A stretch of 64,000 nt of DNA from Acidobacteriota bacterium (lineage in GTDB: Bacteria; Acidobacteriota; Blastocatellia; Pyrinomonadales; Pyrinomonadaceae). Positions within the stretch are counted from its first letter, which is position 1, and the number at the start of each line of letters is the position of its first letter. The notes under the pieces are model-generated. The model ran no database searches. It was not told the origin of the DNA and saw only the letters and a program-made list of their open reading frames with translations. Positions 4,743 to 60,107 of this stretch are shown one piece after another. The position numbers and the translations under genes are program-made. The DNA lies in assembly GCA_031411895.1 (NCBI GenBank), contig JANOBZ010000181.1, positions 2,998-66,997 on the forward strand, given 5' to 3'.

Positions 4743-5234
4743 TTATTTCCAGGTTTTTTCTTTCTTAAATCTTTTGACGACCATATCACGCCGCATTTTC
4801 GGCAGATGGTCTAAAAAAAGTTTGCCGTCGCAATGATCGGTTTCGTGCAGGAAACAGCGTGCGGCGTAGCCTTCGGCTTCACGCTCGAACCATTCGCCTT
4901 TTTCATTCTGTGCTTTTATTGTGACGACGTTCGGACGCACGACGACCGCCGGAACTTTGCCGACTGACAGACAGCCTTCCTGCCCGCTTTGTTCGCCGCT
5001 CGTTTCGATGATTTCGGGATTAGCGGCGATGAGTTTGATGCCGTCGCAATCCATCACGAACAGGCGCAGATTCAAACCGATCTGCGGCGCGGCAAGCCCG
5101 ACACCTTCCGCCTCATACATTGTTTCATACATATCCGCACAGAGTTCGGCGAGCGCGTCGTCAAATTTTTCGACGGGTTTGCCGACCTTTGCCAGAACTT
5201 CTTCGGGCTATTCGGTGATTTTTCTTAAAGCCAT
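4743..5234 (-). pseudogene. def: Peptide deformylase interrupted by in-frame TAG at codon 9 (5208-5210)
   Basis: Reading from ATG 5234: [55 protein letters not shown]...; [10 protein letters not shown], EGCLS and HETDH motifs all intact; ORF track only reports the fragment from ATG 5132. Confidence 0.7.
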
Positions 5235-5244
5235 AATATTTTTT

Positions 5245-5317
5245 GCCACGAACAAACACGAAAGTACACGAAAAATCTATTATTTCCTTTCGTGAATTTT
5301 CGTGTTTGTTCGTGGCT
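5245..5317. repeat. Tandem-unit hairpin element (AGCC-CACGAA family)
   Basis: GCCACGAAcaaaCACGAAagtaCACGAA - loop - TTCGTGaattTTCGTGtttgTTCGTGGCT; immediately upstream of def start. Confidence 0.9.
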
Positions 5318-5323
5318 AAATTC

Positions 5324-5533
5324 TCAGCGAGGAATTACGCCGCGCCGCGAGCGTCGGCTGAAATCGCGTTTGGCGAAAAAGTTTTTTTCCTCGCGCATCT
5401 GACATTCCCAGCAAACGATGCGTTTTTCATTGGTCGGGCTGACAAATTCGTAATAATTGTCCATCATCCGGTCGCATTCGGAACAACGGGCGGGCGGATT
5501 CGCGGTCTTATTGCTCAATTCTTCTTCGTTCAT
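5324..5533 (-). CDS. Small zinc-ribbon protein, hypothetical
   Basis: CSEC...CWEC cysteine pairs; ATGA overlap with upstream gene stop at 5530 (translational coupling). Confidence 0.5.
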   Translation of the reverse strand: MNEEELSNKTANPPARCSECDRMMDNYYEFVSPTNEKRIVCWECQMREEKNFFAKRDFSRRSRRGVIPR

Positions 5534-10485: not shown

Positions 10486-10556
10486 GCCACGAATTGCACG
10501 AATTACACGAATGTTTTTTTTGAATTTTATTCGTGTAATTCGTGCAATTCGTGGCT
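10486..10556. repeat. Tandem-unit hairpin element (AGCC-CACGAAT family)
   Basis: GCCACGAATTGCACGAATTACACGAAT - loop - ATTCGTGTAATTCGTGCAATTCGTGGCT; contains stop and last 9 codons of CDS 10527..11999. Confidence 0.9.
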
Positions 10557-11999
10557 AATAAATTTTTCGGCTAACTGCACCGTTTCGTTGACGTTCAAAG
10601 TTCCGTTCGTAATTTGCGCCGAATTGACGATAAAAACTCCGTCGAGCGAAGTTTTTACTTCGTGCAGATTCGCCGAATAATTTAATGTCGGAATCGGGAA
10701 AACCTGCCGGACGCGCGAGATTTTGAATTCCAAAACATCCGCGCGCAAAAAATGCGCGTACATTTTTTCGAGCGCCGCCGTGAAATTTTCTTCGATCTCG
10801 GCGTCCGTTTTGTCGAACAGTTCATCGTCGGGCGCGACGTATTTCGGCAGATAAACGAGCGCGTTGCCGCCGAACTCCTTTTTATCAACGAGCGCCGACA
10901 TCTCGATAATTCCCGTAAACGGCGTTTCGTCCGTGATGTTCGTGACGTAAAAATCCGACAAAGACTTTTTCATCAGAACCGACGCGCAGACAATGCCCTG
11001 ATATTTTATATTTTCTAATTTCGCTTTTTCTTCGGCAGATAATTGCGGGCAAATCTTTGCGGCGATTGTTGACGGGCAAGTTAAAATTACTTTATCGAAT
11101 TGGTCATTCGATTTCCGATTCGGGATTTCGGATTTCGGATTTCGTTGGTCAATTTCAGATTTCAGATTTGAAATTTGAAATTGATTTTGTAATTTATGAT
11201 CTGTAATTTGTAATTCAAATTCCTTTGCGTCTTCGCGTCTTTGCGACTTTGCGGGAAATATCTCTATTTTTTCGTCAATCGTTTCGATTCTTTCGACGCG
11301 CGAATTAAGTCTAATCTCAACACCTTTCGCTCTTAAGTGTTCGCCGAATCTTTCCAAAACTCGTGCGTAGCCGCCGCGCACGTAGCCGAACATTTCTTTC
11401 TTTAATCCCGAATTTCGCGCCGCGTACATTCTTTGGATCGTCGCCCAGATAAACGCGGCGCTCGTTTCGCGGTAGGCTTCGCCCAATTTGGCTTTCAAAA
11501 GCGGTCGCCACATTTTTTCAAACGTCCGTTTGCCCGAAAACTTTGTTAACCAGTCTTCGACCGAAATCTTTTCTAACGCTTTCCAGTCTTTAACGCGCGC
11601 AGCGTAAAAGATCGTGCCGCCGAGCCGGAATTTTGAAATTAAATCCAATGGCGGAAATTTCAAAAATTCGAGCGTGTTCGACATCGAAACGAGCTTGCCG
11701 TCGGTGTAAAATCCGGTTTTCGTTTCGACCCATTCAAATTCTTCGCCGAGACCAATTTCTTCGACGATTTTACGCGTAAACGAATCCGAAAGCAGCGTCA
11801 CGTGATAATGTTTGTCCCACGTAATGTCGCCGATCTGCCACGCGCTCGCAAGCCCGCCGATTTCATTTGCGGATTCAAAAACCGTCACCTGATTGCCCGC
11901 TTCGGTTAGCCGCAAAGCGAGCGTCAAACCGAGAAAACCCGAACCGACAATCGCGATTTTGGATTTTGGATTTTGGATTTTGGATTTTTCTGAATTCAT
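10527..11999 (-). CDS. FAD/NAD(P)-binding oxidoreductase (amine oxidase-like) with repeat-derived N-terminal extension, about 50-aa internal insert and C-terminal tail
   Basis: IAIVGSGFLGLTLA...FES dinucleotide motif; segments NPKSKIQNPKSKI, ...SNLKSEIDQRNPKSEIPNRKS... and ...SHELHELHE are encoded by tandem-repeat arrays. Confidence 0.8.
   Translation of the reverse strand: MNSEKSKIQNPKSKIAIVGSGFLGLTLALRLTEAGNQVTVFESANEIGGLASAWQIGDITWDKHYHVTLLSDSFTRKIVEEIGLGEEFEWVETKTGFYTDGKLVSMSNTLEFLKFPPLDLISKFRLGGTIFYAARVKDWKALEKISVEDWLTKFSGKRTFEKMWRPLLKAKLGEAYRETSAAFIWATIQRMYAARNSGLKKEMFGYVRGGYARVLERFGEHLRAKGVEIRLNSRVERIETIDEKIEIFPAKSQRREDAKEFELQITDHKLQNQFQISNLKSEIDQRNPKSEIPNRKSNDQFDKVILTCPSTIAAKICPQLSAEEKAKLENIKYQGIVCASVLMKKSLSDFYVTNITDETPFTGIIEMSALVDKKEFGGNALVYLPKYVAPDDELFDKTDAEIEENFTAALEKMYAHFLRADVLEFKISRVRQVFPIPTLNYSANLHEVKTSLDGVFIVNSAQITNGTLNVNETVQLAEKFISHELHELHE
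11107..11256. repeat. Concatenated single-arm tandem arrays inside a CDS
   Basis: (GATTTCG)n, (CAGATTT)2, (GAAATTT)2, (TGTAATT)3, (GCGTCTT/GCGACTT)n in series; translated in frame in CDS 10527..11999. Confidence 0.85.
11955..11989. repeat. (GGATTTT)4-5 heptamer array encoding the N-terminus of CDS 10527..11999
   Basis: GATTTTGGATTTTGGATTTTGGATTTTT read directly; gives SKIQNPKSKI. Confidence 0.9.
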
Positions 12000-12996: not shown

Positions 12997-13070
12997 GCCC
13001 CGAACAAACACGAAAGAACACGAAAATTCTATTAAATTTATTTCGTGTCTTTTCGTGTTTTTTCGTGGCT
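12997..13070. repeat. Tandem-unit hairpin element (CACGAA family)
   Basis: GCCCCGAAcaaaCACGAAagaaCACGAA - loop - TTCGTGtcttTTCGTGttttTTCGTGGCT. Confidence 0.9.
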
Positions 13071-13337
13071 AATTCCTGTTTTCCATTCTCTATATTTTTC
13101 GCGCAGACATTCGAAACAAGGTCGAAATCCGGCGGCGATTGCGATTGATTCATCGGCGAAAAAGACGCGCTGCTTGGCATAATGACCTTTTGCTAGCCAG
13201 CGCGCCGCGCCTTTGCAGTCTAATGTGCCGTAAATCTTGTCTTTGAGATGTCCGCCCAGAGTGCCTTTCTCGGCGCTTTCGTAAAACTTGCCGTCTGTGC
13301 TGAGAAGTTTGTAAGTTTTATCGTTCGAATCGGTCAT
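13038..13337 (-). CDS. Ada-like metal-binding domain protein
   Basis: FYESAEKGTLGGH..K.YG...C..A.....GHYAKQRVFF..E..A...G.RPCFEC resembles the Ada Zn-binding N-terminal domain; last 11 codons and the stop lie inside a hairpin repeat. Confidence 0.55.
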   Translation of the reverse strand: MTDSNDKTYKLLSTDGKFYESAEKGTLGGHLKDKIYGTLDCKGAARWLAKGHYAKQRVFFADESIAIAAGFRPCFECLREKYREWKTGISHEKTRKDTK

Positions 13338-13515
13338 TTACCTCAAATCCAGCGTCGTTTTGCGATTTTTTAATCGAAAGATATCTTCTCGAAAGTAATA
13401 AATCTCTTTTCGAAAGAAACGCCTTTGCTAAATGTTTTAAAGCCTTTTCTAAAGTCTTAACAAAGAGTTAATTCAAACAACTTTTTCTTAAAATTATTTA
13501 AGAAACTGAATAAAA

Positions 13516-13694
13516 GTCGTTGAAAACGACAAATATTATAGCCCGGTGTGAAACGCCGGGTTCAGTGAACAAATTCGATTGCTCGCTGAAAGTGAGCGAC
13601 ATACGAAACGTTCGACACCTTCAGCGTCGGAAACCTTATTCGACCGTAACCCGGCGATGCTCGCCGGGCTATAATATTTGTCATCTTCGATGAC
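13516..13694. repeat. MITE-like / structured element A with hairpin-containing terminal inverted repeats
   Basis: Left GTCGTTGAAAACGACAAATATTATAGCCCGG; right CCGGGCTATAATATTTGTCATCTTCGATGAC; internal hairpins. Confidence 0.75.
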
Positions 13695-13745
13695 TCAAAT
13701 CTTCTGTTTCAAGTCTTTAAACGGCGTCTAAGAAAAACTTTAAAG

Positions 13746-13822
13746 AGTTTAGAGTCCCGCGTTTACGCGGCATTTACTTGCTTGAGAAAATAGATGCCGC
13801 CTAAAGGCGGGACTCTAAACTT
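13746..13822. repeat. Long imperfect hairpin (about 28-nt arms) downstream of CDS 13829..14839
   Basis: AGTTTAGAGTCCCGCGTTTACGCGGCAT - 20-nt loop - ATGCCGCCTAAAGGCGGGACTCTAAACT. Confidence 0.8.
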
Positions 13823-13828
13823 TTTAAT

Positions 13829-14849: not shown

Positions 14850-14917
14850 GCCACGAATAACACGAATAACACGAATTATTTTTACTTCTATTTGTGTTAT
14901 TCGTGTTATTCGTGGCT
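14850..14917. repeat. Tandem-unit hairpin element (AGCC-CACGAAT family)
   Basis: GCCACGAATAACACGAATAACACGAAT - loop - TTTGTGTTATTCGTGTTATTCGTGGCT. Confidence 0.9.
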
Positions 14918-16157: not shown

Positions 16158-16167
16158 AATTTTATAA

Positions 16168-16243
16168 ACGGTAAATGGTGAATGGTAAATGGTAAATGGT
16201 TATACAAAGACATCAACCGTTTACCATTCACCATTTACCATTT
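16168..16243. repeat. Tandem-unit hairpin element (GGTAAAT heptamer family)
   Basis: ACGGTAAATGGTGAATGGTAAATGGTAAATGG - loop - CCGTTTACCATTCACCATTTACCATTT; contains the stop of CDS 16235..17953. Confidence 0.9.
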
Positions 16244-17953
16244 AGAATTTTTTTTATCAATATCAATCTGTGGTTGCAGATTCTCTGTGGATAATGAAGT
16301 TTCAATCGCTTCGGATTTCCCGAAAACGCGCGATTTTGAAAGTTTTGAGAGTAGCTTTAAGTGCCCGAAAATCGTCCTTGCAGTTTTCATTTTCGAAAAT
16401 CCGAACAGACGGACTTCGAGCACCGCCGGGTATTCGACGATCTTTCCGCCCTTCAGATCGAGCCGCCCGAGCATTTCCGCGACGCCTAAGAAACCCTTTT
16501 CCCGAATCGGCAAGTCAACGACGGATGCGCGGCGGTAAACGCGAAAACAGCTCGTATAAGTCGCGAGTTTTGCCCGCAGCGCGCGGCGGTAAAGCCACGA
16601 CGCGCCTTTTGATAAAAACAAGCGCCATTCGGGAACATTGCGCACGCCGCCTTCGCGATGATACGGCGAAGCCGTCACCAGATCCACGTCGCCGGTCAAA
16701 AGCGGCAGCATTTTAACAAGCTCGTGCGGGTCGTACGTGCAGTCGCAGTCCATCGAGCAGACGATTTCCGTGTCCGCCGCGCGAAGCCCGGTCATAATTC
16801 CGGCGGCAACGCCCTGATTCGTTTCGTGACGAACGATTCGCACGTTTTCCCGTCCGCCGAAAAGCTCGTTCAGTTTTTCGAGCGTCGTGTCTTTCGAACA
16901 ATCGTCAACAAAAATAAAATTCGCGCGGAAACCGTTTTCCGAGAGGTTCGTCTCGACGCTTCGGAGGGTGTTTGCCAGGTAAGGCAGCGCCGCTTCTTCG
17001 TTGTAACACGGAATGACGACCGACACGGGATTTTGGATTTTGGATTTTGGATTTTGGATTTGCGGAGTCGAATTTTCCTTTTGCAATTCGTGATTCGCAA
17101 TTCGTAATTCGTCTTTTAGCCCGAGAAATTCCGCTGCGTCGCAGAAATCGTATTTCTGGATGTTTTCCTTGAGAATCCATTCCATTTTGTCGAGCTTGCG
17201 GTAATGACGAATGCGGTTGTAGTGCGAGGCGGCGTTGATGCGCGGCTGTTCGGGGTCGAGTTCCCAGACGTGAAAATAAAAAACGAACGGCTCGCTTTCT
17301 CGTTCGTGCCAATCGCGCACCGCGCGGCGCATCAATGTGTATGGAATCTGACGAAAGTAATTGCCGCCCGAGATCGGAAGAAGCCCGACGCCGAAATTCC
17401 GCGTCGAATACGGAAATTCCCAGACGGCTTTCCCGTTCGTATGAACCTGATGCGCGAAACGCTTGTTTTTATCGTCTTTTCTGGTCGGCAGAAACGACGC
17501 GTCGTAAACAAATCCTTCTTCCGCCAAAACGTCGAAAATCCACGAATCTTTTTCGTAATTGAGTTTTTCGGCGGCGCGGTAACCGATGATTTTCTGACCC
17601 GACGCATCTTCCAATATCCGATTCGTTTTGCGCAAATCTTCGCGAAATTCTTCGTTTGTCAGGTTTTTCAAACTGCGGTGATAAAAACCGCGCGACGCTA
17701 GTTCGTGTCCGCGCGCGGCGATCTCGCGGACAAGTTTCGGATTCTGTTCGGCAATCCAGCCGAGCACGAAAAACGTCGCTTTCGTGTCGAATTCGTCGAG
17801 CAGATCGAGAGTTTTCAATGTGTTCTGTTCGTAACGCGGCTCGAAATTCTCCCAATTTCTCTGCTGAATCAGATTTTCGAACGCGCCGACGTGAAAATAG
17901 TCCTCGACCAGCACGGTCAACAGATGTTTTTTGTTTTGAAGGGGTGAATTCAT
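16235..17953 (-). CDS. Fusion of DUF3473-type polysaccharide deacetylase (PEP-CTERM-locus type) and family 2 glycosyltransferase, joined by repeat-derived linker
   Basis: N-terminal LLTVLVEDYFHVGAF...ATFFVLGWIAE...GHELASRGFYH; C-terminal VSVVIPCYNEE...FVDDCSKD GT2 motifs; linker ELRIANHELQKENSTPQIQNPKSKIQNP encoded by two tandem-repeat arrays. Confidence 0.85.
   Translation of the reverse strand: MNSPLQNKKHLLTVLVEDYFHVGAFENLIQQRNWENFEPRYEQNTLKTLDLLDEFDTKATFFVLGWIAEQNPKLVREIAARGHELASRGFYHRSLKNLTNEEFREDLRKTNRILEDASGQKIIGYRAAEKLNYEKDSWIFDVLAEEGFVYDASFLPTRKDDKNKRFAHQVHTNGKAVWEFPYSTRNFGVGLLPISGGNYFRQIPYTLMRRAVRDWHERESEPFVFYFHVWELDPEQPRINAASHYNRIRHYRKLDKMEWILKENIQKYDFCDAAEFLGLKDELRIANHELQKENSTPQIQNPKSKIQNPVSVVIPCYNEEAALPYLANTLRSVETNLSENGFRANFIFVDDCSKDTTLEKLNELFGGRENVRIVRHETNQGVAAGIMTGLRAADTEIVCSMDCDCTYDPHELVKMLPLLTGDVDLVTASPYHREGGVRNVPEWRLFLSKGASWLYRRALRAKLATYTSCFRVYRRASVVDLPIREKGFLGVAEMLGRLDLKGGKIVEYPAVLEVRLFGFSKMKTARTIFGHLKLLSKLSKSRVFGKSEAIETSLSTENLQPQIDIDKKNSKW
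17027..17112. repeat. Two single-arm arrays, (GGATTTT)5 and AATTCGT units, forming the inter-domain linker of CDS 16235..17953
   Basis: GGGATTTTGGATTTTGGATTTTGGATTTTGGATTTG ... GCAATTCGTGATTCGCAATTCGTAATTCGTC. Confidence 0.9.
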
Positions 17954-19521: not shown

Positions 19522-19818
19522 TTATTCCGGCTGACCTTTACAACCCGGAGCGAAAAGCGCGGGCTGTTTGGTGGAAATGATCGGATAATTTTCCGCTTCG
19601 GTGTTAATTTCGACCCAGCCGAGATATTCTTCGGGAATCGACATATCGGAGAAAATCGCTTCGACCGGACACTCCGGCAAACAGGCGTCGCAGTCAATAC
19701 AGGTGTCCGGATTGATTAAAAGTTTGTCAGGCAGTTCGTGAAAAGCCTCGACGGGACAAACCGCAGCGCAGTCGGTATATTTACATTCAACACAGGGTTC
19801 GGTAACGATATAAGTCAT
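19522..19818 (-). CDS. Ferredoxin (FdxA-type, two Fe-S cluster motifs)
   Basis: MTYIVTEPCVECKYTDCAAVCPVEAF...CIDCDACLPECPVEAI. Confidence 0.85.
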   Translation of the reverse strand: MTYIVTEPCVECKYTDCAAVCPVEAFHELPDKLLINPDTCIDCDACLPECPVEAIFSDMSIPEEYLGWVEINTEAENYPIISTKQPALFAPGCKGQPE

Positions 19819-19969
19819 TTAATTTTTGAAAATCTCCTCGCGTTTTTAATCAACTCAAGATAAAAAGCTAAAACAGCAGGGCTAACTTGTCAAATGCCGC
19901 CGTTCAAGTGATAAAATGCCTTCTATTATCAAAATTTATCAACAAATAACTTTTTAGGGAAAACAGAAA

Positions 19970-21017: not shown

Positions 21018-21090
21018 AGCCACGAACAAACACGAAACCACACGAAAAAATTTATTGTAATTTCGTGAAATTTTGTGTTTGTTCGTGGCT
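21018..21090. repeat. Tandem-unit hairpin element (AGCC-CACGAA family) between glpX and ppsA
   Basis: AGCCACGAAcaaaCACGAAaccaCACGAA - loop - TTCGTGaaatTTTGTGtttgTTCGTGGCT. Confidence 0.9.
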
Positions 21091-21101: not shown

Positions 21102-23510
21102 ATGAATAATTCAAAACCCTTTGTTCTCGATTTGAGCGAAGTCAGTGCCGATGATGTGGCGCTCGTCGGCGGAAAATGTTCTTCTCTCGGAGAGCTTTTC
21201 CGCGAGCTGACAACGCAGGGCGTACGCACCGTTGACGGTTTTACGACGACGAGCTTTGCTTACGAGCTGCTGCTTGAAACGAACGGCTTGCGGAAAAAAC
21301 TACAGAAACTTCTTAAAGGTTTGGATGTCAACAACCTTGAAGAACTGGCGCGCGTCGGCTCGGAAGCCCGTGCGCTGATGCTCGAAACGCCTTTTCCGAA
21401 AGAAGTCGAAACGGCGATCTTCGAAGCTTATAAAAAGCTCGGCGACCGCATCGGCAAAAAAACATTCGAAGTCGCGGTGCGCTCGTCGGCAACCGCCGAA
21501 GATTTGCCCGACGCTTCGTTTGCCGGTCAGCAGGACACGATCTTAAACGTCAGGGGCGAATCAAGGCTGATCGAAGCGTGCCATGAATGCTACGCGTCGC
21601 TCTGGACCGACCGCGCGATTTCGTACCGCACGGCAAAAGGTTTCGACCATTTCGACGTCGCGCTCTCGATCGGAATTCAGCCGATGGTGCGCTCGGATAT
21701 CGCCTGTTCGGGCGTGATGTTCACGCTCGATACGGAATCGGGTTTTCGCGAAGCGGTCGTGATTAACGGCGCATGGGGTTTGGGCGAAGCGGTCGTGCAG
21801 GGCATGGCGACGCCCGACGAATGGATTATCTTTAAACCGACATTGAAACTCGGCTTTCGCCCGATCGTGACGCGGAAATTAGGCGTCAAGGAAGTCAAAA
21901 TGGTTTTTGCCGATGACGGAACGGGAACGCAGGTGCGCGATGTCGTCGAATCACAGCGCAAACGTTTTTGCCTTTCGGGTTACGAAGTTTTGCAGCTCGC
22001 TCAATGGGCGTGCGCGATCGAAGACCATTATTCGAAACGCGCCGGAAAACCGCAGCCGATGGACATCGAATGGGCGAAGGACGGCATCACGGGCGAGCTT
22101 TTTATTCTTCAGGCGCGCCCGGAAACCGTTCACGCGCAAAACAACGAGAACTTTATCGAAACTTATAATCTTTCGGAAAACCACGGCGCGCCGCTCGTTT
22201 CCGGCGTCGCGGTCGGCGAAAAGATCGGCTACGGCACGGCGCACGTCATTCTCGACACCAACAAGATCACGAGTTTCAAAGAAGGCGAGATTCTCGTTAC
22301 TTCGATGACCGATCCGGCGTGGGAACCGATCATGAAACGCGCTTCGGCGATCGTCACGAATCGCGGCGGGCGCACCTGTCACAGCGCGATCATCAGCCGC
22401 GAGCTCGGGATTCCGTGTATCGTCGGCACGGGAAACGCGACCGAAATGCTGCGTTCGGGCAGCGACGTGACGGTTTCGTGCGCCGAAGGCGACCGCGGAA
22501 ATATCTATTACGGACAAGTTGAATTTACGGTTGACCGCCACGAAATTACCGATAAGGAACGCCCGAAAACGCAGGTCATGATGAACGTCGGCGATCCCGA
22601 CCACGCTTTTTCCGTGTCGCGTCTGCCGAACGACGGCGTCGGACTGGCGCGCCTTGAATTTATCATCAACAATCACATCGGAATTCACCCGATGGCGCTC
22701 GTCAATTATCCGGATTTGAAAGATCGTAAGGACGTCGAGGTAATTTCGAGCCGCATTTTGGAAGAAGACCCGAAAGAGTTTTTCGTGCGCAATCTGGCGG
22801 AAGGCGTCGGGCGAATCGCGGCGGCGTTTTATCCGAAACCGGTGATCGTCAGAATGTCTGACTTTAAATCGAACGAATACGCGCGGCTGATCGGCGGCAG
22901 CGAATTCGAACCCGAAGAAGAAAATCCGATGCTCGGATTTCGCGGCGCGTCGCGCTATTACGACGACCGTTACAAAGCCGGTTTCAGATTGGAATGTCTC
23001 TCGATTCTTCGCGTTCGCGAGGATATGGGATTAACCAACGTTAAAGTGATGATTCCCTTCTGCCGGACGGTCGAAGAAGGCGAAAAGGTCATCGAATGTA
23101 TGGCGGAACACGGGCTCGTGCAGGGCGATAACGATCTCGAAGTTTACGCGATGTGCGAATTGCCGGCAAACGTCGTTTTCGCCGATGAATTTTTACAGGT
23201 TTTCGACGGTTACTCGATCGGCTCGAACGATTTGACACAGCTTGCTTTGGGCTTAGACCGCGATTCGGAGATGGTCGCGCATCTTTTTGACGAACGCAAC
23301 GGCGCGGTCGAAAAAATGGTCGCGATGGCGATCGACGCGGCGAAAAGAAACAATAAAAAGATCGGCATCTGCGGTCAGGCACCGTCGGATTATCCGGAAT
23401 TTGCGCAGTTTCTGGTCGAACGCGGGATCAATTCGATTTCGCTTAATCCCGACACGGTTATTCAAACGACGGCGCATATTTTGAAAACCGAAAAGCACTT
23501 GAAAAAATAA
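21102..23510 (+). CDS. ppsA: Phosphoenolpyruvate synthase
   Basis: 802 aa; VGGKCSSLGE, VAVRSSATAEDLPDASFAGQQDT, GGRTCHSAIISRELGIPCIVG (phospho-His) and GICGQAPSD motifs. Confidence 0.95.
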   Translation: MNNSKPFVLDLSEVSADDVALVGGKCSSLGELFRELTTQGVRTVDGFTTTSFAYELLLETNGLRKKLQKLLKGLDVNNLEELARVGSEARALMLETPFPKEVETAIFEAYKKLGDRIGKKTFEVAVRSSATAEDLPDASFAGQQDTILNVRGESRLIEACHECYASLWTDRAISYRTAKGFDHFDVALSIGIQPMVRSDIACSGVMFTLDTESGFREAVVINGAWGLGEAVVQGMATPDEWIIFKPTLKLGFRPIVTRKLGVKEVKMVFADDGTGTQVRDVVESQRKRFCLSGYEVLQLAQWACAIEDHYSKRAGKPQPMDIEWAKDGITGELFILQARPETVHAQNNENFIETYNLSENHGAPLVSGVAVGEKIGYGTAHVILDTNKITSFKEGEILVTSMTDPAWEPIMKRASAIVTNRGGRTCHSAIISRELGIPCIVGTGNATEMLRSGSDVTVSCAEGDRGNIYYGQVEFTVDRHEITDKERPKTQVMMNVGDPDHAFSVSRLPNDGVGLARLEFIINNHIGIHPMALVNYPDLKDRKDVEVISSRILEEDPKEFFVRNLAEGVGRIAAAFYPKPVIVRMSDFKSNEYARLIGGSEFEPEEENPMLGFRGASRYYDDRYKAGFRLECLSILRVREDMGLTNVKVMIPFCRTVEEGEKVIECMAEHGLVQGDNDLEVYAMCELPANVVFADEFLQVFDGYSIGSNDLTQLALGLDRDSEMVAHLFDERNGAVEKMVAMAIDAAKRNNKKIGICGQAPSDYPEFAQFLVERGINSISLNPDTVIQTTAHILKTEKHLKK

Positions 23511-23573
23511 GACCACGGATTACACAGATTATTTTTACAGCTTTAAAGTCCGTGTAATCCGTGTAATCTGTTG
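23511..23573. repeat. Tandem-unit hairpin element (CACGGATTA family)
   Basis: GACCACGGATTACACAGATTA - loop - TCCGTGTAATCCGTGTAATCTGTTG after ppsA stop. Confidence 0.85.
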
Positions 23574-24706: not shown

Positions 24707-24776
24707 ATATAAAGTGGAAAATGCTTTTTCTTTGAGGAAAAGTTTTCCGCTTTAATTTTTTTGGAGTTAAAAAAAA

Positions 24777-26210: not shown

Positions 26211-26225
26211 CTCTTTCGATAAAAT

Positions 26226-26271
26226 AAGAAATAAAAAAGCCGCGATATGATTCGCGGCTTTTTTATTTCTT
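26226..26271. terminator. Bidirectional terminator after S8 peptidase gene
   Basis: 20-nt perfect arms AAGAAATAAAAAAGCCGCGA / TCGCGGCTTTTTTATTTCTT. Confidence 0.8.
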
Positions 26272-26444
26272 ATTGCGGAACTTGTGAATATTTTCATTTT
26301 CAACCTTCTGCGACATTGCGGTTAACCATTTGGAACATTGAAGATACAGAAATGTTGGCGAAAAATATTTAGCGACACAGCTTGAAATTATTAAATTATT
26401 GAATGTCAACAACTTAAAAGATTTGTAAAGTTCCCTAAAGATAA

Positions 26445-27125: not shown

Positions 27126-27263
27126 GATTTTCGGAAATTTAGCGCGGCTTAAAAATCCAGCCCTTCCGAAACCAACTATTAAGCCGTGTTGAAGAAAAAA
27201 GCCTGAAGCCGAAAAGCTTCGGGCTTTTTTTATTTTGCGCTTCCAAAGATTTACAATCAACGA

Positions 27264-34849: not shown

Positions 34850-34906
34850 AAAAATTCGTCTTCGGGCGATATTCCGCAGTAGCTCAATGGCAGAGCATTC
34901 GGCTGT

Positions 34907-35457
34907 AAGCTAGGCAAGGTCTTTTACAATGGCAGAGAAGCGCACATATCAACAGCGCAGAGAATACATGCTCGAAGCGGTTAAACGCCGAAGGGCAAAA
35001 GTTCGAGAAATGGCTGTTGAATACAAAGGCGGTAGTTGTGAGGTTTGCGGCTACAATCGTTGTATCGAAGCACTTGAATTTCATCATCTTGATCCGGTAA
35101 AAAAAGAATTTGGAATTTCCGCAAAAGGTTATTCCAGAAGTTGGGAAAAGGTTAAAGCTGAAATTGAAAAATGTGTTTTGTTGTGTGCAAATTGTCATCG
35201 TGAATTCCACGCTGGAAAGTTGCAGCTTTCACAGGTGACTGTGATTGAAAAATCGGATGAATTCAGGGAAGCCTTCATTAATGCAAATTAATATGGTAAT
35301 CCTGAGCGAAGCCTGCTGAATGGTTTAAGAGTAAGCAGGAACGTGCAGAGACTAGAGATTGAGGAAACCAAACCGATAAAATCTCCACGAGCGTCCGACA
35401 ACTTTTTAGGAAGTTGATGAGATAGTCCACACTCAAACGAAAGTTTGGGAGAAAGTG
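34907..35457 (+). mobile_element. Group I (IC3-like) intron candidate with homing-endonuclease ORF
   Basis: Preceded by exon U, ends in G; blocks CAGGGAAGCC (35264-35273), AATCCTGAGCGAAGCC (35298-35313) and GTGCAGAGACTAGA (35343-35356) resemble conserved P4/P6/J8-7 segments of tRNA-Leu/Azoarcus-type group I introns (from memory; not folded). Confidence 0.7.
34929..35291 (+). CDS. HNH endonuclease (intron-encoded, putative homing endonuclease)
   Basis: CEVCGY...LEFHHLDP...KCVLLCANCHREFH HNH/Zn motif; AAGG 10 nt upstream of ATG; 3' end of ORF overlaps the putative P4-P5 region. Confidence 0.8.
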   Translation: MAEKRTYQQRREYMLEAVKRRRAKVREMAVEYKGGSCEVCGYNRCIEALEFHHLDPVKKEFGISAKGYSRSWEKVKAEIEKCVLLCANCHREFHAGKLQLSQVTVIEKSDEFREAFINAN

Positions 35458-35511
35458 TAACCGAAGGGTTGTAAGTTCGAGTCTTACCTGCGGAGCTTCA
35501 AATTAAAAATA

Positions 35512-36628: not shown

Positions 36629-37282
<654 letters not shown>

Positions 37283-41007: not shown

Positions 41008-41043
41008 CCGAAATCCGAAATCTGAAATCCTAAATCGAATGAT
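41008..41043. repeat. (GAAATCC-type) heptamer array ending in ATGATG
   Basis: CCGAAATCCGAAATCTGAAATCCTAAATCGAATGATG upstream of the ABC permease gene. Confidence 0.8.
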
Positions 41044-41108: not shown

Positions 41109-42644
41109 ATGAATTTCTTCGAGTTTCTCAAAGGAAATTGGGCGGAACTTCTCGCTTTGACGCGCGAGCATCTGATTCTGGTGTTTGCCGCCACGGCGTT
41201 CGCCGTCGCTTTCGGCGTACCGCTCGGAATTTTGCTGACACGCAAAAAATCTTTACAAACTCCCATCTTAGGAATCGCGAATATTTTGCAGACCGTCCCG
41301 AGCCTCGCGCTGTTCGGGCTTTTGATCCCGCTTCCCTTGATCGGCGGAATCGGCGCGCGCACTGCCATTATCGCGCTCACGCTTTATTCGTTTCTGCCCG
41401 TGATTCGCAACACCGTGACGGGAATTTTGAGCGTCGACGCGAAAACCAAGGAAGCCGCGACGGCGATGGGATTGACCGATTGGCAGGTTTTGAAAATGGT
41501 CGAACTGCCGCTCGCCGCGCCCGTTATTTTAACCGGAATTCGCGTCGCGGTCGTGATCGCAGTCGGCGTCGCGACGGTCGCGGCAGCGGTCGGCGCGGGC
41601 GGTTTGGGAACTTATATTTTTCGAGGACTTCGTCAAAACGACAACAATCTGCTGCTCGCGGGCGCATTAGCTTCGGCGATTCTCGCACTTTTTCTGGATT
41701 TTGCGCTCGGGCAAATTGAAAAATCGTTCGATTACAAAACACGCGCCGAAAATTCGCGCCGCCGTTTTATCGCCGCCGGCTCGCTCGCGCTCATTCTCGC
41801 GATTTTCGGTTTCAGTTTAATCCGAAATCCGAAATCCGAAATCCGAAATCAGATGATTCGTGTCGGCTCGAAGGATTTTACCGAATCCGTGATTTTGGCG
41901 GAAATTCTCGCGCAGCTGCTCGAAAAACGCGGAATCGCGGTCGAGCGCCGTTTCGAACTCGGCGGAAATCTCGCGCACGACGCTCTTTTATCCAACAACT
42001 TGGACGTTTATCCCGAATACACCGGAACGGCTTACACGGCGATCTTGAAGCAGAAACCCGTTACCGACACCGAAAAAGTTTATGACGAAACGCGGCGCGA
42101 ATACGCGGAAAAATTCGCTTTAACGGTCAGCCCGCCGCTCGGATTTTCGAACGATTTCGCGATTCTCGTGCGCGGCGACGCGGCGCGAAAAAACAATTTG
42201 AAAACGATTTCCGACGCCGTTCCGCTCGCGAGCAACTGGCAAGCCGGATTCGGGCAGGATTTTATGTCGCGCGCCGACGGTTACGCGGGATTCGCGCGCA
42301 GCTACAATTTTAACTTCGCCCGCCAGCCGCGCGAGATGGATTTATCTTTAACTTATCGCGCATTGCAATCGGGACAGCTCGACATCATCGCCGGAAATTC
42401 GACCGACGGTTTGATCGCCGCGCTCGATCTGTTTCAATTGACGGACGATAAAAAATATTTCCCGCCGTATCAAGCGGTTTTCATCGCGCGCGGCGACAAA
42501 GCGGAAATTTTGCAAGCAACATTCGAAAAACTAAACAACGCGATCTCGACCGACGAAATGCGCCGTCTGAATTACGCGGTCGACGGCGAAAAATCAACAC
42601 CCAAACAAGCGGCTGAAAACTGGCTCAAAGAAAAAGGTTTTTAA
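41109..42644 (+). CDS. ABC transporter permease fused to substrate-binding domain (OpuCB/OpuCC-like)
   Basis: Start at ATG 41109 (MNFFEFLKGNW); permease EAA-like region; extra TM then linker IRNPKSEIRNQ (repeat array) then SBP domain IRVGSKDFTES... Confidence 0.85.
   Translation: MNFFEFLKGNWAELLALTREHLILVFAATAFAVAFGVPLGILLTRKKSLQTPILGIANILQTVPSLALFGLLIPLPLIGGIGARTAIIALTLYSFLPVIRNTVTGILSVDAKTKEAATAMGLTDWQVLKMVELPLAAPVILTGIRVAVVIAVGVATVAAAVGAGGLGTYIFRGLRQNDNNLLLAGALASAILALFLDFALGQIEKSFDYKTRAENSRRRFIAAGSLALILAIFGFSLIRNPKSEIRNQMIRVGSKDFTESVILAEILAQLLEKRGIAVERRFELGGNLAHDALLSNNLDVYPEYTGTAYTAILKQKPVTDTEKVYDETRREYAEKFALTVSPPLGFSNDFAILVRGDAARKNNLKTISDAVPLASNWQAGFGQDFMSRADGYAGFARSYNFNFARQPREMDLSLTYRALQSGQLDIIAGNSTDGLIAALDLFQLTDDKKYFPPYQAVFIARGDKAEILQATFEKLNNAISTDEMRRLNYAVDGEKSTPKQAAENWLKEKGF
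41819..41850. repeat. (AATCCGA)4 heptamer array inside CDS 41109..42644
   Basis: AATCCGAAATCCGAAATCCGAAATCCGAAATC then AG-ATG; encodes IRNPKSEIRNQ. Confidence 0.9.
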
Positions 42645-47065: not shown

Positions 47066-47142
47066 TTCGGTTTTGGGTTTTCGGTTTTAGGTTTTTGATT
47101 TAACAAAAGCCAAAGACCAAAGCCCCAAAACCAAACCGAAGG
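47066..47142. repeat. Tandem-unit hairpin element (GGTTTTG heptamer family) between MFP and RND genes
   Basis: TTCGGTTTTGGGTTTTCGGTTTTAGGTTTTTG - loop - CCAAAGACCAAAGCCCCAAAACCAAACCGAAGG; ATG 47149 follows after 6 nt. Confidence 0.9.
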
Positions 47143-50430: not shown

Positions 50431-50435
50431 AGTTA

Positions 50436-50515
50436 TTCGATTTGGGATTTCGGAGTTCGGATTAAAATTCGAGCAAAGACAAATCCGCAATCCCAAATCG
50501 AAAATCCGAAATCGA
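50436..50515. repeat. Tandem-unit hairpin element (GATTTCG / CGAAATC family)
   Basis: TTCGATTTGGGATTTCGGAGTTCGGATT - loop - AATCCGCAATCCCAAATCGAAAATCCGAAATCGA, then ATGATG start of CDS 50516. Confidence 0.9.
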
Positions 50516-50938
50516 ATGATGGCTTTATCGGTAAAAATCGCGCTTCTGGCTTCGGGCTTATTTCTGCTTTCGGGAATGCTGACCGGCATCTGGAAATACG
50601 CACGGATTATGCAGTCTGCCGAACATCAAGCACCGGTTTATGTTGATATCGCGCATCGCGCGTCGTTCTTTTACAGTTTTGCGAGTTTGGTGATCGCCAA
50701 ATTGATCGAGTATTCGCCGTTCAGCAGTTTTCAGCAGATCGTGATTGTCGCCGTGCCAATTTTATATTTTATTTTAACGGTCGCGGGATATATCAGGGAA
50801 GGCTATTTGAACCGCACGGAAAATATGTTTACGGAAAGAAATTTCGTCACGACGTGGTTTATGTACGGTTTGATCGCGGGCGAGATCGGCGGATTTTTAT
50901 TGATTATGGGCGGTTTTATTTATACGCAGTTTTTATAG
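50516..50938 (+). CDS. Four-helix membrane protein, hypothetical
   Basis: ATGATG start is the last part of a repeat array; hydrophobic helices; between RND permease and TolC genes. Confidence 0.55.
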   Translation: MMALSVKIALLASGLFLLSGMLTGIWKYARIMQSAEHQAPVYVDIAHRASFFYSFASLVIAKLIEYSPFSSFQQIVIVAVPILYFILTVAGYIREGYLNRTENMFTERNFVTTWFMYGLIAGEIGGFLLIMGGFIYTQFL

Positions 50939-50943
50939 ACGGT

Positions 50944-51003
50944 CTTCGGTTTTGGGTATTCGGTTTTTGCAAAAACCGAATACCCAAAACCCAAAACCAA
51001 AAT
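50944..51003. repeat. Tandem-unit hairpin element (GGTTTTG family)
   Basis: CTTCGGTTTTGGGTATTCGGTTTTT GC AAAAACCGAATACCCAAAACCCAAAACC. Confidence 0.9.
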
Positions 51004-52857: not shown

Positions 52858-52874
52858 TCTTCCTTTAATTTGAA

Positions 52875-52945
52875 GCTGCGAAACAGCGCGAAACAACACA
52901 AAAAACCATTCTCAAATTTAGTGTCGTTTCGCGCTTTCGCGCGCT
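52875..52945. repeat. Tandem-unit hairpin element (GCGAAAC family) after TolC gene
   Basis: GCTGCGAAACAGCGCGAAACAACAC - loop - GTGTCGTTTCGCGCTTTCGCGCGC. Confidence 0.85.
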
Positions 52946-53095
52946 TTTGAATTAAATGATATTCAGCCGGCATTTTTTTTCTGTAAAACCCTTTACTTTT
53001 TCCGAAAATTTATTTGCAATTCACCGCAAATTCGTATTATGTTTGCGTCGTAGTTCTGCAGATTTTTAATCTACAACTTTAAAGGAGAGAAGGAA

Positions 53096-54224: not shown

Positions 54225-54236
54225 AAACAAATTTTA

Positions 54237-54306
54237 GCCACGAATGACGCGAATTGCACGAATAGCCGGAAAAAATAATTCGTGAGATTCGTGTCATTCG
54301 TGGCTG
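54237..54306. repeat. Tandem-unit hairpin element (AGCC-CACGAAT family) between divergent genes
   Basis: AGCCACGAATGACGCGAATTGCACGAAT - loop - ATTCGTGAGATTCGTGTCATTCGTGGCT. Confidence 0.9.
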
Positions 54307-56342: not shown

Positions 56343-56356
56343 GTTTTTTTTAGATT

Positions 56357-56427
56357 AGCCACGAATGGCACAAATAGCACGAATAAAGCTTTAGTTTTTA
56401 TTCGTGTTATTTGTGCCATTCGTGGCT
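56357..56427. repeat. Tandem-unit hairpin element (AGCC-CACGAAT family)
   Basis: AGCCACGAATGGCACAAATAGCACGAAT - loop - ATTCGTGTTATTTGTGCCATTCGTGGCT. Confidence 0.9.
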
Positions 56428-56544
56428 AATTCCTGTTTCTTCTTCGCGAAAAATTTTGTCACAAAATTCCCGCCGCCGGTGTTTTCATCACAGAACGCAC
56501 ATTCTGCGAAGAAATAATTTATAAACTTGGAGGGATTTTTTGTG

Positions 56545-57402: not shown

Positions 57403-57432
57403 ACCTCGGAAAATCGAGTTATAATAAGTAAA

Positions 57433-57474
57433 GTAAAAAGGCGCATCGTTTTATAAAACGATGCGCCTTTTTAC
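57433..57474. terminator. Bidirectional terminator / GTAAAAAG-family hairpin
   Basis: Perfect palindrome GTAAAAAGGCGCATCGTTTTA / TAAAACGATGCGCCTTTTTAC between convergent genes. Confidence 0.7.
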
Positions 57475-57490
57475 TTTGATAAATATTTGC

Positions 57491-59994: not shown

Positions 59995-60004
59995 AATTGT
60001 TTAA

Positions 60005-60107
60005 GTTTATTGAGTTTGTTGAGTTCTTTGAGTTCATAGAGTTGAAGAAGTTCATTTACTCTATGAACTCTACAAACTCAATAAACTCTATGAACTCAAA
60101 GAACTCT
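60005..60107. repeat. Tandem-unit hairpin element (GAGTT(T/C)nn family) between kinase and regulator genes
   Basis: GTTTATTGAGTTTGTTGAGTTCTTTGAGTTCATAGAGT - loop - ACTCTATGAACTCTACAAACTCAATAAACTCTATGAACTCAAAGAACTC. Confidence 0.9.

What the first reader, a model, noticed from the sequence alone, without database searches (positions are those of the whole stretch)
5231..5252. Hairpin elements end a fixed 9-13 nt before start codons that have no Shine-Dalgarno sequence
Six genes begin directly after a CACGAA-family 3' arm, with a conserved A/T leader and no purine-rich SD. On the coding strand these read: TTCGTGGCAAAAAATATTATG (def, 5234), TTCGTGGCAAAAATCTTATG (10476), TTCGGGGCAAAAATCTTATG (12987), TTCGTGGCAAAAATCTTTATG (14839), TTCGTGGCTAAAATTTGTTTATG (54224) and TTCGTGGCTAAACTATAAATATG (ppsA, 21102). 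The CGAAATC family behaves the same way: CCGAAATCGAATGATG (50516), CTAAATCGAATGATG (41038) and CCGAAATCAGATG (41853). Array AAAATCCC is followed by GTG at 17026, in front of the GT2 domain. Genes in the window that do not follow a repeat usually carry obvious SD sequences, for example GAGGAGG at 4475, AAGGAGAAA before 35780, and AAGGAGAG before 26559. This suggests either that the element plus its A/T leader works as an intercistronic translation-initiation or re-initiation module, or that the element inserts preferentially right at RBS-start junctions and may even supply the ATG.
Basis: seen in the sequence. Interest (0 to 1): 0.65.

Follow-up and report, generated by a model that had tools for sequence, protein, structure and literature searches.

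The report
Intergenic hairpin repeats beside SD-less starts
Long hairpin-forming repeats fill the short gaps between genes in this soil acidobacterium, so they end about 10 bases before the next start codon; but most genes in this lineage lack a Shine-Dalgarno site anyway, so the hairpins are not a special ribosome-binding device.

Summary
The six CACGAA hairpin/start junctions are real, and their start codons are mostly backed by orthologues. The wider claims fail. Three of the four "CGAAATC/AAAATCC" examples are not gene starts. The spacing is 0-26 nt across hairpin families and relatives, not a fixed 9-13. SD-less starts are the norm here: 13/55 window genes and 34/106 independently called genes in relatives have an SD, against a published 32% for Blastocatellia.

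The window comes from a Pyrinomonadaceae-like acidobacterium. It is full of 65-110 nt palindromic repeats whose arms are tandem 7-10 nt units. These repeats sit against stop codons and fill short intercistronic spacers.

At the same junction, different species carry hairpins of unrelated families (CACGAA, GCAAAG, CACAGAT, GTGAAAA and others). The 8-20 nt leader in front of the ATG stays gene-specific, and it keeps an SD where the gene has one (the S8 peptidase and AcrB-like genes).

The hairpin and the translation-initiation region are therefore separate modules. The hairpins are best read as REP/MITE-like replaceable cassettes at gene 3' ends. The start proximity follows from operon compactness, plus selection to keep about 7 nt or more unpaired before the ATG. 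The cassette turnover at conserved positions is the part that remains interesting.

The parts
5245..5316 (-). CACGAA-family hairpin (period-10 units). It lies between a 69-aa zinc-ribbon ORF (stop 5326-5328) and def (ATG 5232-5234), with the 10-nt leader AAAAAATATT.
10486..10555 (-). CACGAA hairpin (period 9), followed by the 9-nt leader AAAAATCTT and ATG 10476 (polysaccharide deacetylase). The upstream ORF 10527..11999 reads through the 5' arm and ends ...SHELHELHE*.
12997..13069 (-). CACGAA hairpin (period 10), followed by a 9-nt leader and ATG 12987 (hexapeptide transferase, MVKIHP). The upstream ORF 13038..13337 ends inside the hairpin.
14850..14916 (-). CACGAA hairpin (period 9), followed by the 10-nt leader AAAAATCTTT and ATG 14839 (Gfo/Idh/MocA, MNKLKF). 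The DegT stop lies 11 nt upstream.
16165..16244 (-). TGGTAAA-family hairpin (period 7), followed by a 7-nt leader and ATG 16157 (DegT, MTPTLE). The upstream GT2 fusion gene stops inside the hairpin.
21018..21090 (+). CACGAA hairpin 7 nt after the glpX stop, followed by the 11-12 nt leader TAAACTATAAAT and ATG 21102 (ppsA).
23510..23569 (+). CGGATTACAC-type hairpin directly after the ppsA stop, followed by 15 nt and ATG 23585 (DUF2085, MNQPIE). In L001 the two genes overlap (ATGA) with no hairpin.
24710..24754 (+). Terminator-like hairpin followed by T7-GGAG-A8 and ATG 24777 (S8 peptidase). This is a hairpin-adjacent start that does carry an SD, conserved in L001 and L204.
47066..47135 (+). GGTTTTC-heptamer hairpin 3 nt after the MFP stop, followed by the 13-nt leader CCGAAGGTTTTAT and ATG 47149 (AcrB-like, MQWLAE). 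Unrelated hairpins occupy the same junction in L203 and L205.
50435..50517 (+). Imperfect CGAAATC/GGATTTC hairpin whose base overlaps ATG 50516 (140-aa membrane ORF with no family match).
50941..50998 (+). Heptamer-unit palindrome 2 nt after the stop of 50516..50938, followed by the 14-nt leader AAAATTCATATTTT and ATG 51013 (OEP/TolC-like with a signal peptide).
54236..54305 (.). CACGAA hairpin inside a 109-bp DIVERGENT intergenic region. ATG 54224 (-) lies 11-12 nt from one end and ATG 54334 (+) 26-28 nt from the other.
56354..56430 (+). CACGAA hairpin 10-12 nt after the O-methyltransferase stop but about 95 nt before the next start (56527). This is the counter-example to fixed start spacing.
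59997..60103 (-). GAGTT-unit (period 9) hairpin between the histidine kinase stop (60108) and the sigma-54 response regulator ATG 59994. The stable stem starts about 9 nt from the ATG.
52861..52959 (+). CGCGAAA-unit hairpin 3 nt after the OEP stop and 136 nt before the next start.
17028..17112 (-). Heptamer arrays (GGATTTT x4.9, AATTCGT x4) that encode the linker between the deacetylase and GT2 domains of one 572-aa protein. GTG 17026 is an internal codon, not a start.
41819..41850 (+). Heptamer array AATCCGA x4.6 translated as the linker (IRNPKSEIRNQ) inside a fused permease-OpuAC protein. ATG 41853 is an internal codon.
41008..41036 (+). Heptamer array CCGAAAT x4 in the divergent region upstream of the transporter gene. 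The ATG at 41039 is out of frame with the gene; the likely start is 41109.

Best explanation
The hairpins are a superfamily of REP/MITE-like palindromic repeats, 65-110 nt long. Their stems are 25-35 bp, each arm is built from about three tandem 7-10 nt units, and the loops are A/T-rich. They occupy gene 3' ends in this Pyrinomonadaceae-like genome. In tightly packed co-directional gene pairs a hairpin fills the space between the stop codon and the next gene's own short translation-initiation region.

Shown: the leader in front of the ATG belongs to the downstream gene, not to the hairpin. It is the ordinary A-rich, mostly SD-less initiation region of an SD-poor lineage. The hairpin is a separate cassette that is gained, lost and replaced by other families over evolutionary time.

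Inferred: the roughly 7-15 nt spacing arises from two things. The first is the small size of the original intercistronic spacer; stop-side plus start-side remnants add up to about 0-25 nt, the same as hairpin-free spacers. The second is selection against stems that encroach on the last ~7 nt before the ATG, which must stay single-stranded for SD-independent initiation.

Also inferred: when transcribed, each hairpin folds on itself, so it neither masks the start codon nor separates stop and start in space. That would explain why it is tolerated inside operons. It may additionally act as an mRNA 3'-end barrier or processing site.
For: - Taxon: ppsA homologues at 86-94% identity are named Pyrinomonadaceae.
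- SD-poor lineage: 13/55 window genes and 34/106 tool-called genes in six related loci have a core SD. The published figure for Blastocatellia is 32% (PMC10783764).
- Hairpin-free operon-internal genes with spacers of 40 nt or less have an SD in 6/24 cases. Hairpin-adjacent starts have one in 3-4/31, or about 2 of 16 independent junctions.
- Positions -8 to -2 are 41-55% A across all genes.
- Cassette turnover at orthologous junctions:
  - GFO: CACGAA / GCAAAG / CACAGAT / GCGCACACACGAAA.
  - DegT: TGGTAAA / CACTAAT / GCAGATAA / GTGAAAA.
  - ppsA: five different hairpins.
  - def: CACGAA in the window, a GACCGTTAGGGAG hairpin in L003.
  - MFP-to-AcrB: three unrelated hairpins.
- Leaders stay gene-specific through that turnover: AAAAAT.. 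for GFO, TTTTTGGAG..A8 for S8, AAGG..TTTT for AcrB.
- Presence/absence differs between species: ppsA/DUF2085 overlap in L001 but hold a 60-nt hairpin in the window, and the hexapeptide-transferase junction is empty in L001.
- Stop anchoring: in intergenic regions longer than 115 nt the hairpin is within 15 nt of the stop 8 times and of the start 2 times. Metagenomic CACGAA copies lie 0-19 nt from a stop in 24/55 flanks, but only 3/52 lie 10-14 nt from a start.
- The variable spacers inside the arms are complementary between arms at 73% of positions, against 25% by chance.
- Mismatches show no sense-strand G.U excess (53 against 54). This fits palindromy kept at the DNA or element level.
- REPs elsewhere are known to abut or overlap ORF ends (PMC3733652).
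Against: - No transposase was found in the window. No target-site duplication could be defined.
- Replacement of one family by another at exactly the same junction across species and genera is hard to explain by random insertion. It hints at either a functional requirement for a hairpin there or a targeting mechanism, and neither is shown.
- Pooled counts show a weak depletion of SD after hairpins (about 13% against 34%, Fisher p about 0.01-0.02). It loses significance once orthologous junctions are counted once.
- Leaders after hairpins are slightly more A/T-rich than other SD-less leaders (0.79 against 0.72, p=0.01).
- Three window junctions share the identical leader GGCAAAAATCTT although their stems differ. 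This could reflect an element-borne flank or a constraint I have not explained.
- No transcript data are available.
Confidence: 0.6

Rival explanations
1. Translational bridge or re-initiation module. The folded stem brings the upstream stop codon and the downstream ATG to within about 10-25 nt of each other. Terminating ribosomes, or 30S subunits held at the stem base, then re-initiate on the SD-less A-rich leader. This resembles a prokaryotic shunt, and the hairpin would be required for expression of the downstream cistron.
For: - In snug co-directional junctions the stop lies -32 to +11 nt from the stem and the start lies about 7-24 nt from it.
- Hairpins persist at the same operon junctions in 3-5 species despite sequence replacement.
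- There is a pooled trend towards fewer SDs after hairpins.
Against: - Hairpin-free operon junctions are equally SD-poor (6/24).
- Hairpins also sit in divergent (54236-54305) and convergent regions, and far from any start (56354, 52861).
- The spacing is broad (0-26 nt).
- Some junctions lack the hairpin in a sister species with the same leader style.
- Genes that have an SD keep it next to the hairpin.
Confidence: 0.12
2. Intercistronic RNA processing or stability elements. The 25-35 bp stems would be RNase III substrates or 3'-exonuclease barriers that cut operon transcripts into segments with different half-lives. The downstream mRNA would be left with a very short 5' leader. This is compatible with the best explanation as an added function.
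For: - Stems of 22 bp or more lie at nearly every junction of operon-like clusters: MFP-RND-OMF, HK-RR and the polysaccharide cluster.
- They lack a sense-strand U-tract and are not called as intrinsic terminators.
- Correia elements in Neisseria are a precedent: hairpin repeats bound or cleaved by RNase III (PMC2649163).
- REP-containing mRNAs are known exonuclease targets or barriers (PMC12320835).
Against: - There is no strand-specific G.U signature, which long-term RNA-level selection would be expected to leave.
- No transcript data are available.
- The same elements occur in divergent promoter regions.
Confidence: 0.2
3. The element ends carry outward promoters, so downstream genes are transcribed as leaderless or near-leaderless mRNAs. 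That would explain the missing SD.
For: - TAAAAT and TAAACT hexamers lie at -12..-7 of ATG 54224 and 21102, and TGGTAAATT lies before 54334.
- The divergent 109-bp region leaves almost no room for promoters outside the hairpin.
- Correia ends can create promoters (PMC2649163).
Against: - There is no positional peak of TANNNT at -12/-13 across 110 starts.
- The four GGCAAAAA leaders have no such hexamer.
- The consensus scan finds no promoter at the element ends apart from one badly placed hit.
- The arms of different families share no -35-like motif.
Confidence: 0.06

Closest known systems
REP / BIME / REPIN elements (enterobacteria, Pseudomonas, Stenotrophomonas), mobilised by RAYT Y1 transposases
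   Same: - High-copy intergenic imperfect palindromes.
- Concentrated at gene 3' ends and between genes of operons.
- Often abut or overlap ORF ends.
- Several families per genome, and clusters occur.
   Different: - Much longer stems here (25-35 bp, against 10-15 bp for single REPs).
- Arms made of tandem 7-10 nt sub-repeats.
- No GTAG or CGTC head; many copies start T(T/C)AGCC.
- No RAYT seen in the window.
- Different families occupy the same junction in sister species.
MITEs, in particular Neisseria Correia repeat enclosed elements
   Same: - Terminal inverted repeats that fold into a long hairpin when co-transcribed.
- Located next to genes.
- Present/absent between strains.
- Can influence neighbouring gene expression.
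- Some metagenomic CACGAA copies have 28-bp inverted arms around a 45-55 nt core.
   Different: - No target-site duplication and no parent IS identified.
- Most window copies are almost all stem, with 9-16 nt loops.
- Many unrelated unit sequences share one architecture.
Cyanobacterial STRR / tandem heptamer repeats (from my own knowledge: Mazel et al. 1990; Elhai et al. 2008)
   Same: - Short (7-nt) units amplified in tandem in non-coding DNA.
- Several unit families per genome.
- Found in a lineage with weak SD usage.
   Different: - Here the arrays are paired in inverted orientation to form hairpins at gene ends.
- Some arrays are translated in frame as protein linkers.
- Different phylum.
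SD-independent initiation on unstructured A-rich leaders (Bacteroidetes 'Kozak-like' sequences, PMC6847099)
   Same: - Most genes lack an SD.
- Adenine is enriched at -8 to -2.
- Initiation is presumably governed by local lack of structure.
   Different: - Blastocatellia keep a usable anti-SD, and about 30% of genes have strong SDs.
- No experimental data exist for this lineage.

Membership tests
REP/RAYT (REPtron) elements | Short (20-40 nt) imperfect palindrome | tested here: not met
   The elements are 65-110 nt with 25-35 bp stems.
REP/RAYT (REPtron) elements | Conserved GTAG or CGTC tetranucleotide at the foot of the stem | tested here: not met
   Heads read TTAGCC, TCAGCC, TTAACG or TAAACGG. 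Only the L003 family contains AGTAGCC.
REP/RAYT (REPtron) elements | High-copy, intergenic, near ORF ends | tested here: met
   - About 25 long hairpins in 64 kb.
- 42 of 115 co-directional junctions are occupied.
- Stop distances are mostly -10 to +20 nt.
REP/RAYT (REPtron) elements | Cognate Y1 (RAYT) transposase gene in the genome, flanked by REPs | not testable with these tools
   There is none among the window ORFs scanned. A 202-aa PF01797 Y1_Tnp gene lies in a relative's syntenic contig, but no DNA was available for it.
MITE | Terminal inverted repeats | tested here: met
   The arms are inverted repeats. Some metagenomic copies have 28-bp arms around a 45-55 nt core.
MITE | Target-site duplication and a related autonomous IS | tested here: inconclusive
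   The TTA...TAA flanks are part of the palindrome. No clean empty/filled site pair with identical flanks was found. No IS was found.
Intrinsic (Rho-independent) terminator | G+C-rich stem followed by a U-tract on the transcribed strand | tested here: not met
   - Most tandem-unit hairpins are followed by A-rich sequence on the sense strand and are not called by the terminator scan.
- Canonical terminators do exist elsewhere in the window (26223-26274, 27194-27231, 57430-57477).
- A few hairpins qualify: the S8 junction, and the ppsA junction in L001 and L003.
   Spacing is 0-26 nt in snug junctions and 28-145 nt elsewhere. Only 3/52 metagenomic copies fall in 10-14 nt.
   About 70% of all genes lack an SD. 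Hairpin-free operon-internal genes have one in 6/24 cases. The S8 and AcrB-like genes keep an SD-like motif next to the hairpin (PMC10783764).
   The hairpin at 54236-54305 lies between divergent genes, and others lie between convergent genes.
Leaderless mRNA genes | A -10 hexamer (TANNNT) centred about 10 nt upstream of the start codon across the gene set | tested here: not met
   There is no positional peak among 110 starts.
Any Rfam RNA family | Score at or above the family's gathering threshold | tested here: not met
   The hairpins give only sub-threshold miRNA-precursor look-alikes.

The most novel reading that the evidence does not exclude
Pyrinomonadaceae may maintain a system of interchangeable intercistronic hairpin cassettes. 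Specific operon junctions are kept occupied by a 25-35 bp stem across species and genera, while the stem sequence, built from tandem 7-10 nt units, is repeatedly swapped between families. This would imply one of two things. Either a dedicated hairpin-targeting copy/replace mechanism exists, or there is a real functional need for a structured insulator or bridge between the stop codon and an SD-less initiation region.
Probability: 0.15. Interest if true: 0.7.

Novelty: new variant of a known kind. Interest (0 to 1): 0.4.

Why it matters
As stated, the finding would have implied a new hairpin-based substitute for the Shine-Dalgarno interaction, and the evidence does not support that. Two things remain useful.

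1. A caution for annotation. In this SD-poor lineage, hairpin repeats run up to, and sometimes into, ORF ends. They create artificial N- or C-terminal extensions and misleading candidate start codons.

2. A family of tandem-unit palindromic repeats that, as far as I could find, has not been described. It is very dense: about 40% of co-directional junctions are occupied. Its members are replaced by unrelated families at conserved junctions. If that turnover reflects targeting or selection, it would bear on how operon mRNAs are organised in abundant but little-studied soil Acidobacteria.

Tried and rejected
- Rfam scan: no curated family matches the hairpins.
- Leaderless-promoter idea: no -10 positional peak and no consistent promoter hits at element ends.
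- Canonical terminator idea: the hairpins fail the U-tract criterion on the sense strand.
- RNA-level selection test: G.U against A.C mismatches relative to the sense strand came out balanced at 53:54. This gives no support for strand-specific RNA structure selection. Orientation calls were crude.
- Search for a mobilising transposase in the window: none among about 40 ORFs scanned with Pfam.
- Exact-protein look-up of the window's own ppsA: not on record. Two relatives' contigs had gene tables but no DNA.
- My ungapped hairpin finder missed bulged stems, so the hairpin-adjacent lists were curated from RNAfold output.
- Literature searches for Acidobacteria or Blastocatellia hairpin repeats found no description of these elements.
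- TAG recoding as an explanation for the def stop: rejected, because TAG ends other genes such as glpX and the stops in L203/L205.
Full report
**1. What is at the coordinates**

Positions 5231-5252 cover three things: the reverse-strand start of a peptide deformylase gene (CAT at 5232-5234), a 10-nt A/T leader, and the first bases of a 72-nt palindrome, GCCACGAAcaaaCACGAAagtaCACGAAa / loop / tTTCGTGaattTTCGTGtttgTTCGTGGC.

The octamer TTCGTGGC occurs 15 times in the window, against 3.1 expected. Seven full hairpins of this CACGAA family are present, with 27-34 bp stems and 9-16 nt A/T-rich loops. They lie at 5245-5316, 10486-10555, 12997-13069, 14850-14916, 21018-21090, 54236-54305 and 56354-56430.

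**2. Organism and data for comparison**

The ppsA protein (21102-23510) has homologues of 86-94% identity. Those that carry a name are labelled Pyrinomonadaceae (Acidobacteriota, class Blastocatellia).

I obtained syntenic or related loci, most with independent gene calls:
- L001: about 81% nucleotide identity, syntenic with window 12.4-32 kb.
- L202, L203, L204, L205, L206.
- L003 and L005, from the genome collection.

**3. Checking the starts**

Supported starts:
- The ATGs at 12987, 14839, 16157 and 21102 match the called starts, product lengths and N-terminal peptides of orthologues (MVKIHP, MNKLKF, MTPTLE, M(N/K)NSKP).
- def 5234 matches the L003 orthologue (MAVRKITEYPEKV...). The window copy, however, has TAG where the orthologue has Tyr.
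- 10476 and 54224 are the first ATGs after an in-frame stop and precede Pfam domains.

- The ATG at 41038/41039 is out of frame with the transporter gene. The conserved permease N-terminus starts at ATG 41109.
- ATG 41853 and GTG 17026 are internal codons of fused two-domain proteins. One is BPD_transp_1 + OpuAC. The other is polysaccharide deacetylase/DUF3473 + GT2, which is 565-573 aa in every relative.
- The heptamer arrays at those two sites are translated as interdomain linkers.

The palindrome 50941-50998 is followed 14 nt later by ATG 51013, the start of a TolC-like protein with a signal peptide.

**4. Is SD absence special to hairpin-preceded genes? No.**

- With curated starts, 13 of 55 window genes have a core SD of 4 nt or more.
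- In 106 genes called independently of me in six related loci, the figure is 34 (32%).
- A published survey gives 32% SD usage, with a canonical anti-SD, for Blastocatellia (PMC10783764).
- Hairpin-free operon-internal genes with spacers of 40 nt or less have an SD in 6 of 24 cases.
- Hairpin-adjacent starts have one in 3-4 of 31. Those 31 are only about 16 independent junctions, and two of them carry an SD or SD-like motif. This is not distinguishable from the background once orthologues are counted once.
- All genes together show adenine enrichment at -8 to -2 (41-55% A). This resembles SD-independent, structure-sensitive initiation as described in Bacteroidetes (PMC6847099).

**5. Is the spacing fixed? 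No.**

- For the six CACGAA junctions in the window it is 9-12 nt.
- Across all hairpin families in the window and close relatives, the snug junctions range from 0 to 26 nt (median about 10-12). About 40% of hairpins lie 28-145 nt from the next start.
- Among 52 start-facing flanks of metagenomic CACGAA hairpins, only 3 fall in 10-14 nt. In contrast, 24 of 55 stop-facing flanks lie within 0-19 nt.
- In intergenic regions long enough to discriminate (more than 115 nt), the hairpin is within 15 nt of the stop eight times and of the start twice.
- 56354-56430 and 52861-52959 are window examples: 3-12 nt after a stop and 95-136 nt before the next start.
- In snug junctions the stop-side and start-side remnants add up to roughly 0-25 nt. 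Hairpin-free co-directional spacers are the same size (-4 to 38 nt for the short class).

The start proximity is therefore what one expects when a self-folding element sits in an ordinary short intercistronic spacer. The near-absence of stable stems closer than about 7 nt to the ATG is plausibly due to selection for an unpaired initiation region; this last point is inference.

**6. What the hairpins are**

About 25 long hairpins occur in 64 kb. Forty-two of 115 co-directional junctions in the window and relatives are occupied. The hairpins share an architecture rather than a sequence. Each arm has roughly three tandem units of 7-10 nt. Unit types include CACGAAnnn, TGGTAAA, GAGTTnnnn, CGGATTnn, GGTTTTC, GTGAAAA and GCAAAGnn. 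Many stems begin T(T/C)AGCC.

- The variable spacers inside the arms differ between copies but are matched in the opposite arm at 73% of positions, against 25% by chance.
- Mismatches show no excess of G.U over A.C on the sense strand (53 against 54). So there is no sign of strand-specific RNA-level selection, and the palindromy looks maintained at the element or DNA level.
- The hairpins match no Rfam family.
- They are not called as canonical terminators or promoters. The window does also contain ordinary G+C-rich, U-tailed terminators.
- They sit inside operon-like clusters, including MFP-RND-small ORF-OMF, histidine kinase-response regulator, and a polysaccharide gene cluster.
- They also sit between convergent genes, and at 54236-54305 between divergent genes only 109 bp apart. 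That last case alone rules out re-initiation as a general explanation.

**7. The most informative result: cassette turnover with conserved leaders**

At the same orthologous junction, different species carry hairpins of unrelated families:

| Junction | Window | Relatives |
|---|---|---|
| DegT-to-GFO | CACGAA | L001 GCAAAG; L202 CACAGAT; L204 GCGCACACACGAAA |
| GT2-to-DegT | TGGTAAA | L001 CACTAAT; L202 GCAGATAA; L204 GTGAAAA |
| glpX-to-ppsA | CACGAA | L001 GCAAAG; L202 ACAGGAT; L204 GTGAAAA; L003 a non-tandem 29-bp stem; L005 a decayed remnant |
| zinc-ribbon ORF-to-def | CACGAA | L003 GACCGTTAGGGAG |
| MFP-to-AcrB-like (MQWLAE) | GGTTTTC | L203 AAAGGAC; L205 CTAGTTTCGGG |

Families recur at neighbouring junctions within one genome. 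Some junctions are empty in one species: ppsA/DUF2085 overlap as ATGA in L001, and the hexapeptide-transferase junction is empty in L001.

Throughout this turnover, the 8-20 nt leader remains characteristic of the gene:
- AAAAAT(C/T)nT for GFO.
- TTTTTGGAG-A8 for the S8 peptidase. Here an SD is retained right after the hairpin in the window, L001 and L204.
- AAGG..TTTT for the AcrB-like gene.

More distant ppsA genes, which lack both the glpX neighbour and the hairpin, have clear SDs. That shows the initiation region is a property of the gene lineage.

The hairpin and the initiation region are thus separable modules. The hairpin does not supply the leader or the ATG.

**8. Mechanism**

The best-supported reading (confidence about 0.6) is that these are REP/MITE-like palindromic repeats that occupy gene 3' ends. 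They are tolerated inside operons because each folds on itself, leaving the downstream gene's own A-rich, mostly SD-less initiation region single-stranded.

- Shown: the positions, the stop anchoring, the turnover, the presence/absence differences, and the lineage-wide rarity of SDs.
- Inferred: the tolerance argument, and any role as a 3'-exonuclease barrier or RNase III site. The latter is a compatible add-on, by analogy with REPs and Correia elements.
- The re-initiation or bridge idea (about 0.12) and the element-borne-promoter/leaderless idea (about 0.06) are not excluded for individual junctions, but they fail as general explanations.

**9. What remains unexplained**

- Why are specific junctions kept occupied across species and genera while the occupant changes?
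- Why do three window junctions with different stems share the identical leader GGCAAAAATCTT?
- A Y1 transposase gene (PF01797) lies in a relative's syntenic contig. It is a candidate mobiliser, but no DNA was available to test it.

**10. Verdict**

The underlying repeat system is a new variant of a known kind (REP/MITE-like elements) with an unusual tandem-unit design and positional turnover. Interest 0.4.

Noticed in passing
window 5208-5210 (- strand, codon 9 of def, 4743..5234): The peptide deformylase ORF has an in-frame TAG ([13 protein letters not shown]) where the L003 orthologue has Tyr (MAVRKITEYPEKVL). TAG is used as a normal stop elsewhere, so this looks like a point nonsense mutation, a pseudogene or a sequencing error rather than recoding.
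   Followed up: partly
window ~34880-35490 (+): A group I intron (Rfam RF00028, 101 bits, 35189-35449) appears to interrupt a tRNA gene. The 5' half is ...TCCGCAGTAGCTCAATGGCAGAGCATTCGGCT near 34875-34910, and the 3' half ends ...GTTCGAGTCTTACCTGCGGAGC near 35490. The intron appears to carry an HNH-type endonuclease ORF (34929..35291, motif CANCHREFH). ARAGORN reports no tRNA in the window.
   Followed up: partly
window 11100-11260 and 11955-11988 (- strand, inside ORF 10527..11999): Several tandem arrays (mostly heptamers: GCAAAG-, AAATTAC-, CAAATTT- and CGAAATC-type units) are inserted in frame between the two halves of an amine-oxidase domain. A CAAAATC x4.9 array encodes residues 4-15, right before the GxGxxG motif. 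Repeat units are therefore also translated as low-complexity protein segments.
   Followed up: partly
window 17028-17112; L001, L202, L204 orthologues: The linker between the deacetylase and GT2 domains is built from heptamer arrays in all four species, but with different units (GAATTAC/AAAATCC, CAAGTTC, GAGAGTC). This is the same turnover pattern as in the intergenic hairpins, and it may mark an old gene fusion across a repeat.
   Followed up: partly
window 10527-10555 and 13038-13069 (- strand): Two ORFs read through the distal hairpin arm and stop in the A/T loop. This gives repeat-encoded C-terminal tails (...ISHELHELHE*, ...ISHEKTRKDTK*). Terminating ribosomes would have to melt the whole 5' arm.
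   Followed up: no
relative contig of P0016 (no DNA held), between the epimerase and ferredoxin genes: A 202-aa PF01797 (Y1_Tnp, IS200/RAYT-type) gene sits in the region syntenic with window ~19.2-19.5 kb. It is a candidate mobiliser of the hairpin repeats.
   Followed up: no
window 13338-13828; L001 2215-2627: The long intergenic stretch at the same place in both genomes is packed with several different hairpins and tandem units (for example 13515-13695 and 13740-13827), like a BIME-type cluster or a graveyard of successive insertions.
   Followed up: no
window 19819-19850 and orthologues (upstream of the ferredoxin gene, 19522..19818, - strand): A GAGGAG motif is conserved in three species but lies 17-20 nt upstream of the ATG. 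That is unusually far for a functional SD.
   Followed up: no
window 36629-37282 (+): This ORF has no family match and is rich in internal repeats: an 18-, 30- and 33-nt periodicity at 37018-37176, and (AGC)13 at 37235-37273.
   Followed up: no
L089, L092, L102, L105 (metagenome loci): Some CACGAA-family copies have 28-bp inverted arms around a 45-55 nt non-palindromic core, so they have a MITE-like layout rather than a simple hairpin. Other contigs (L084, L099, L199, L137, L164) carry tandem arrays of the hairpins.
   Followed up: no
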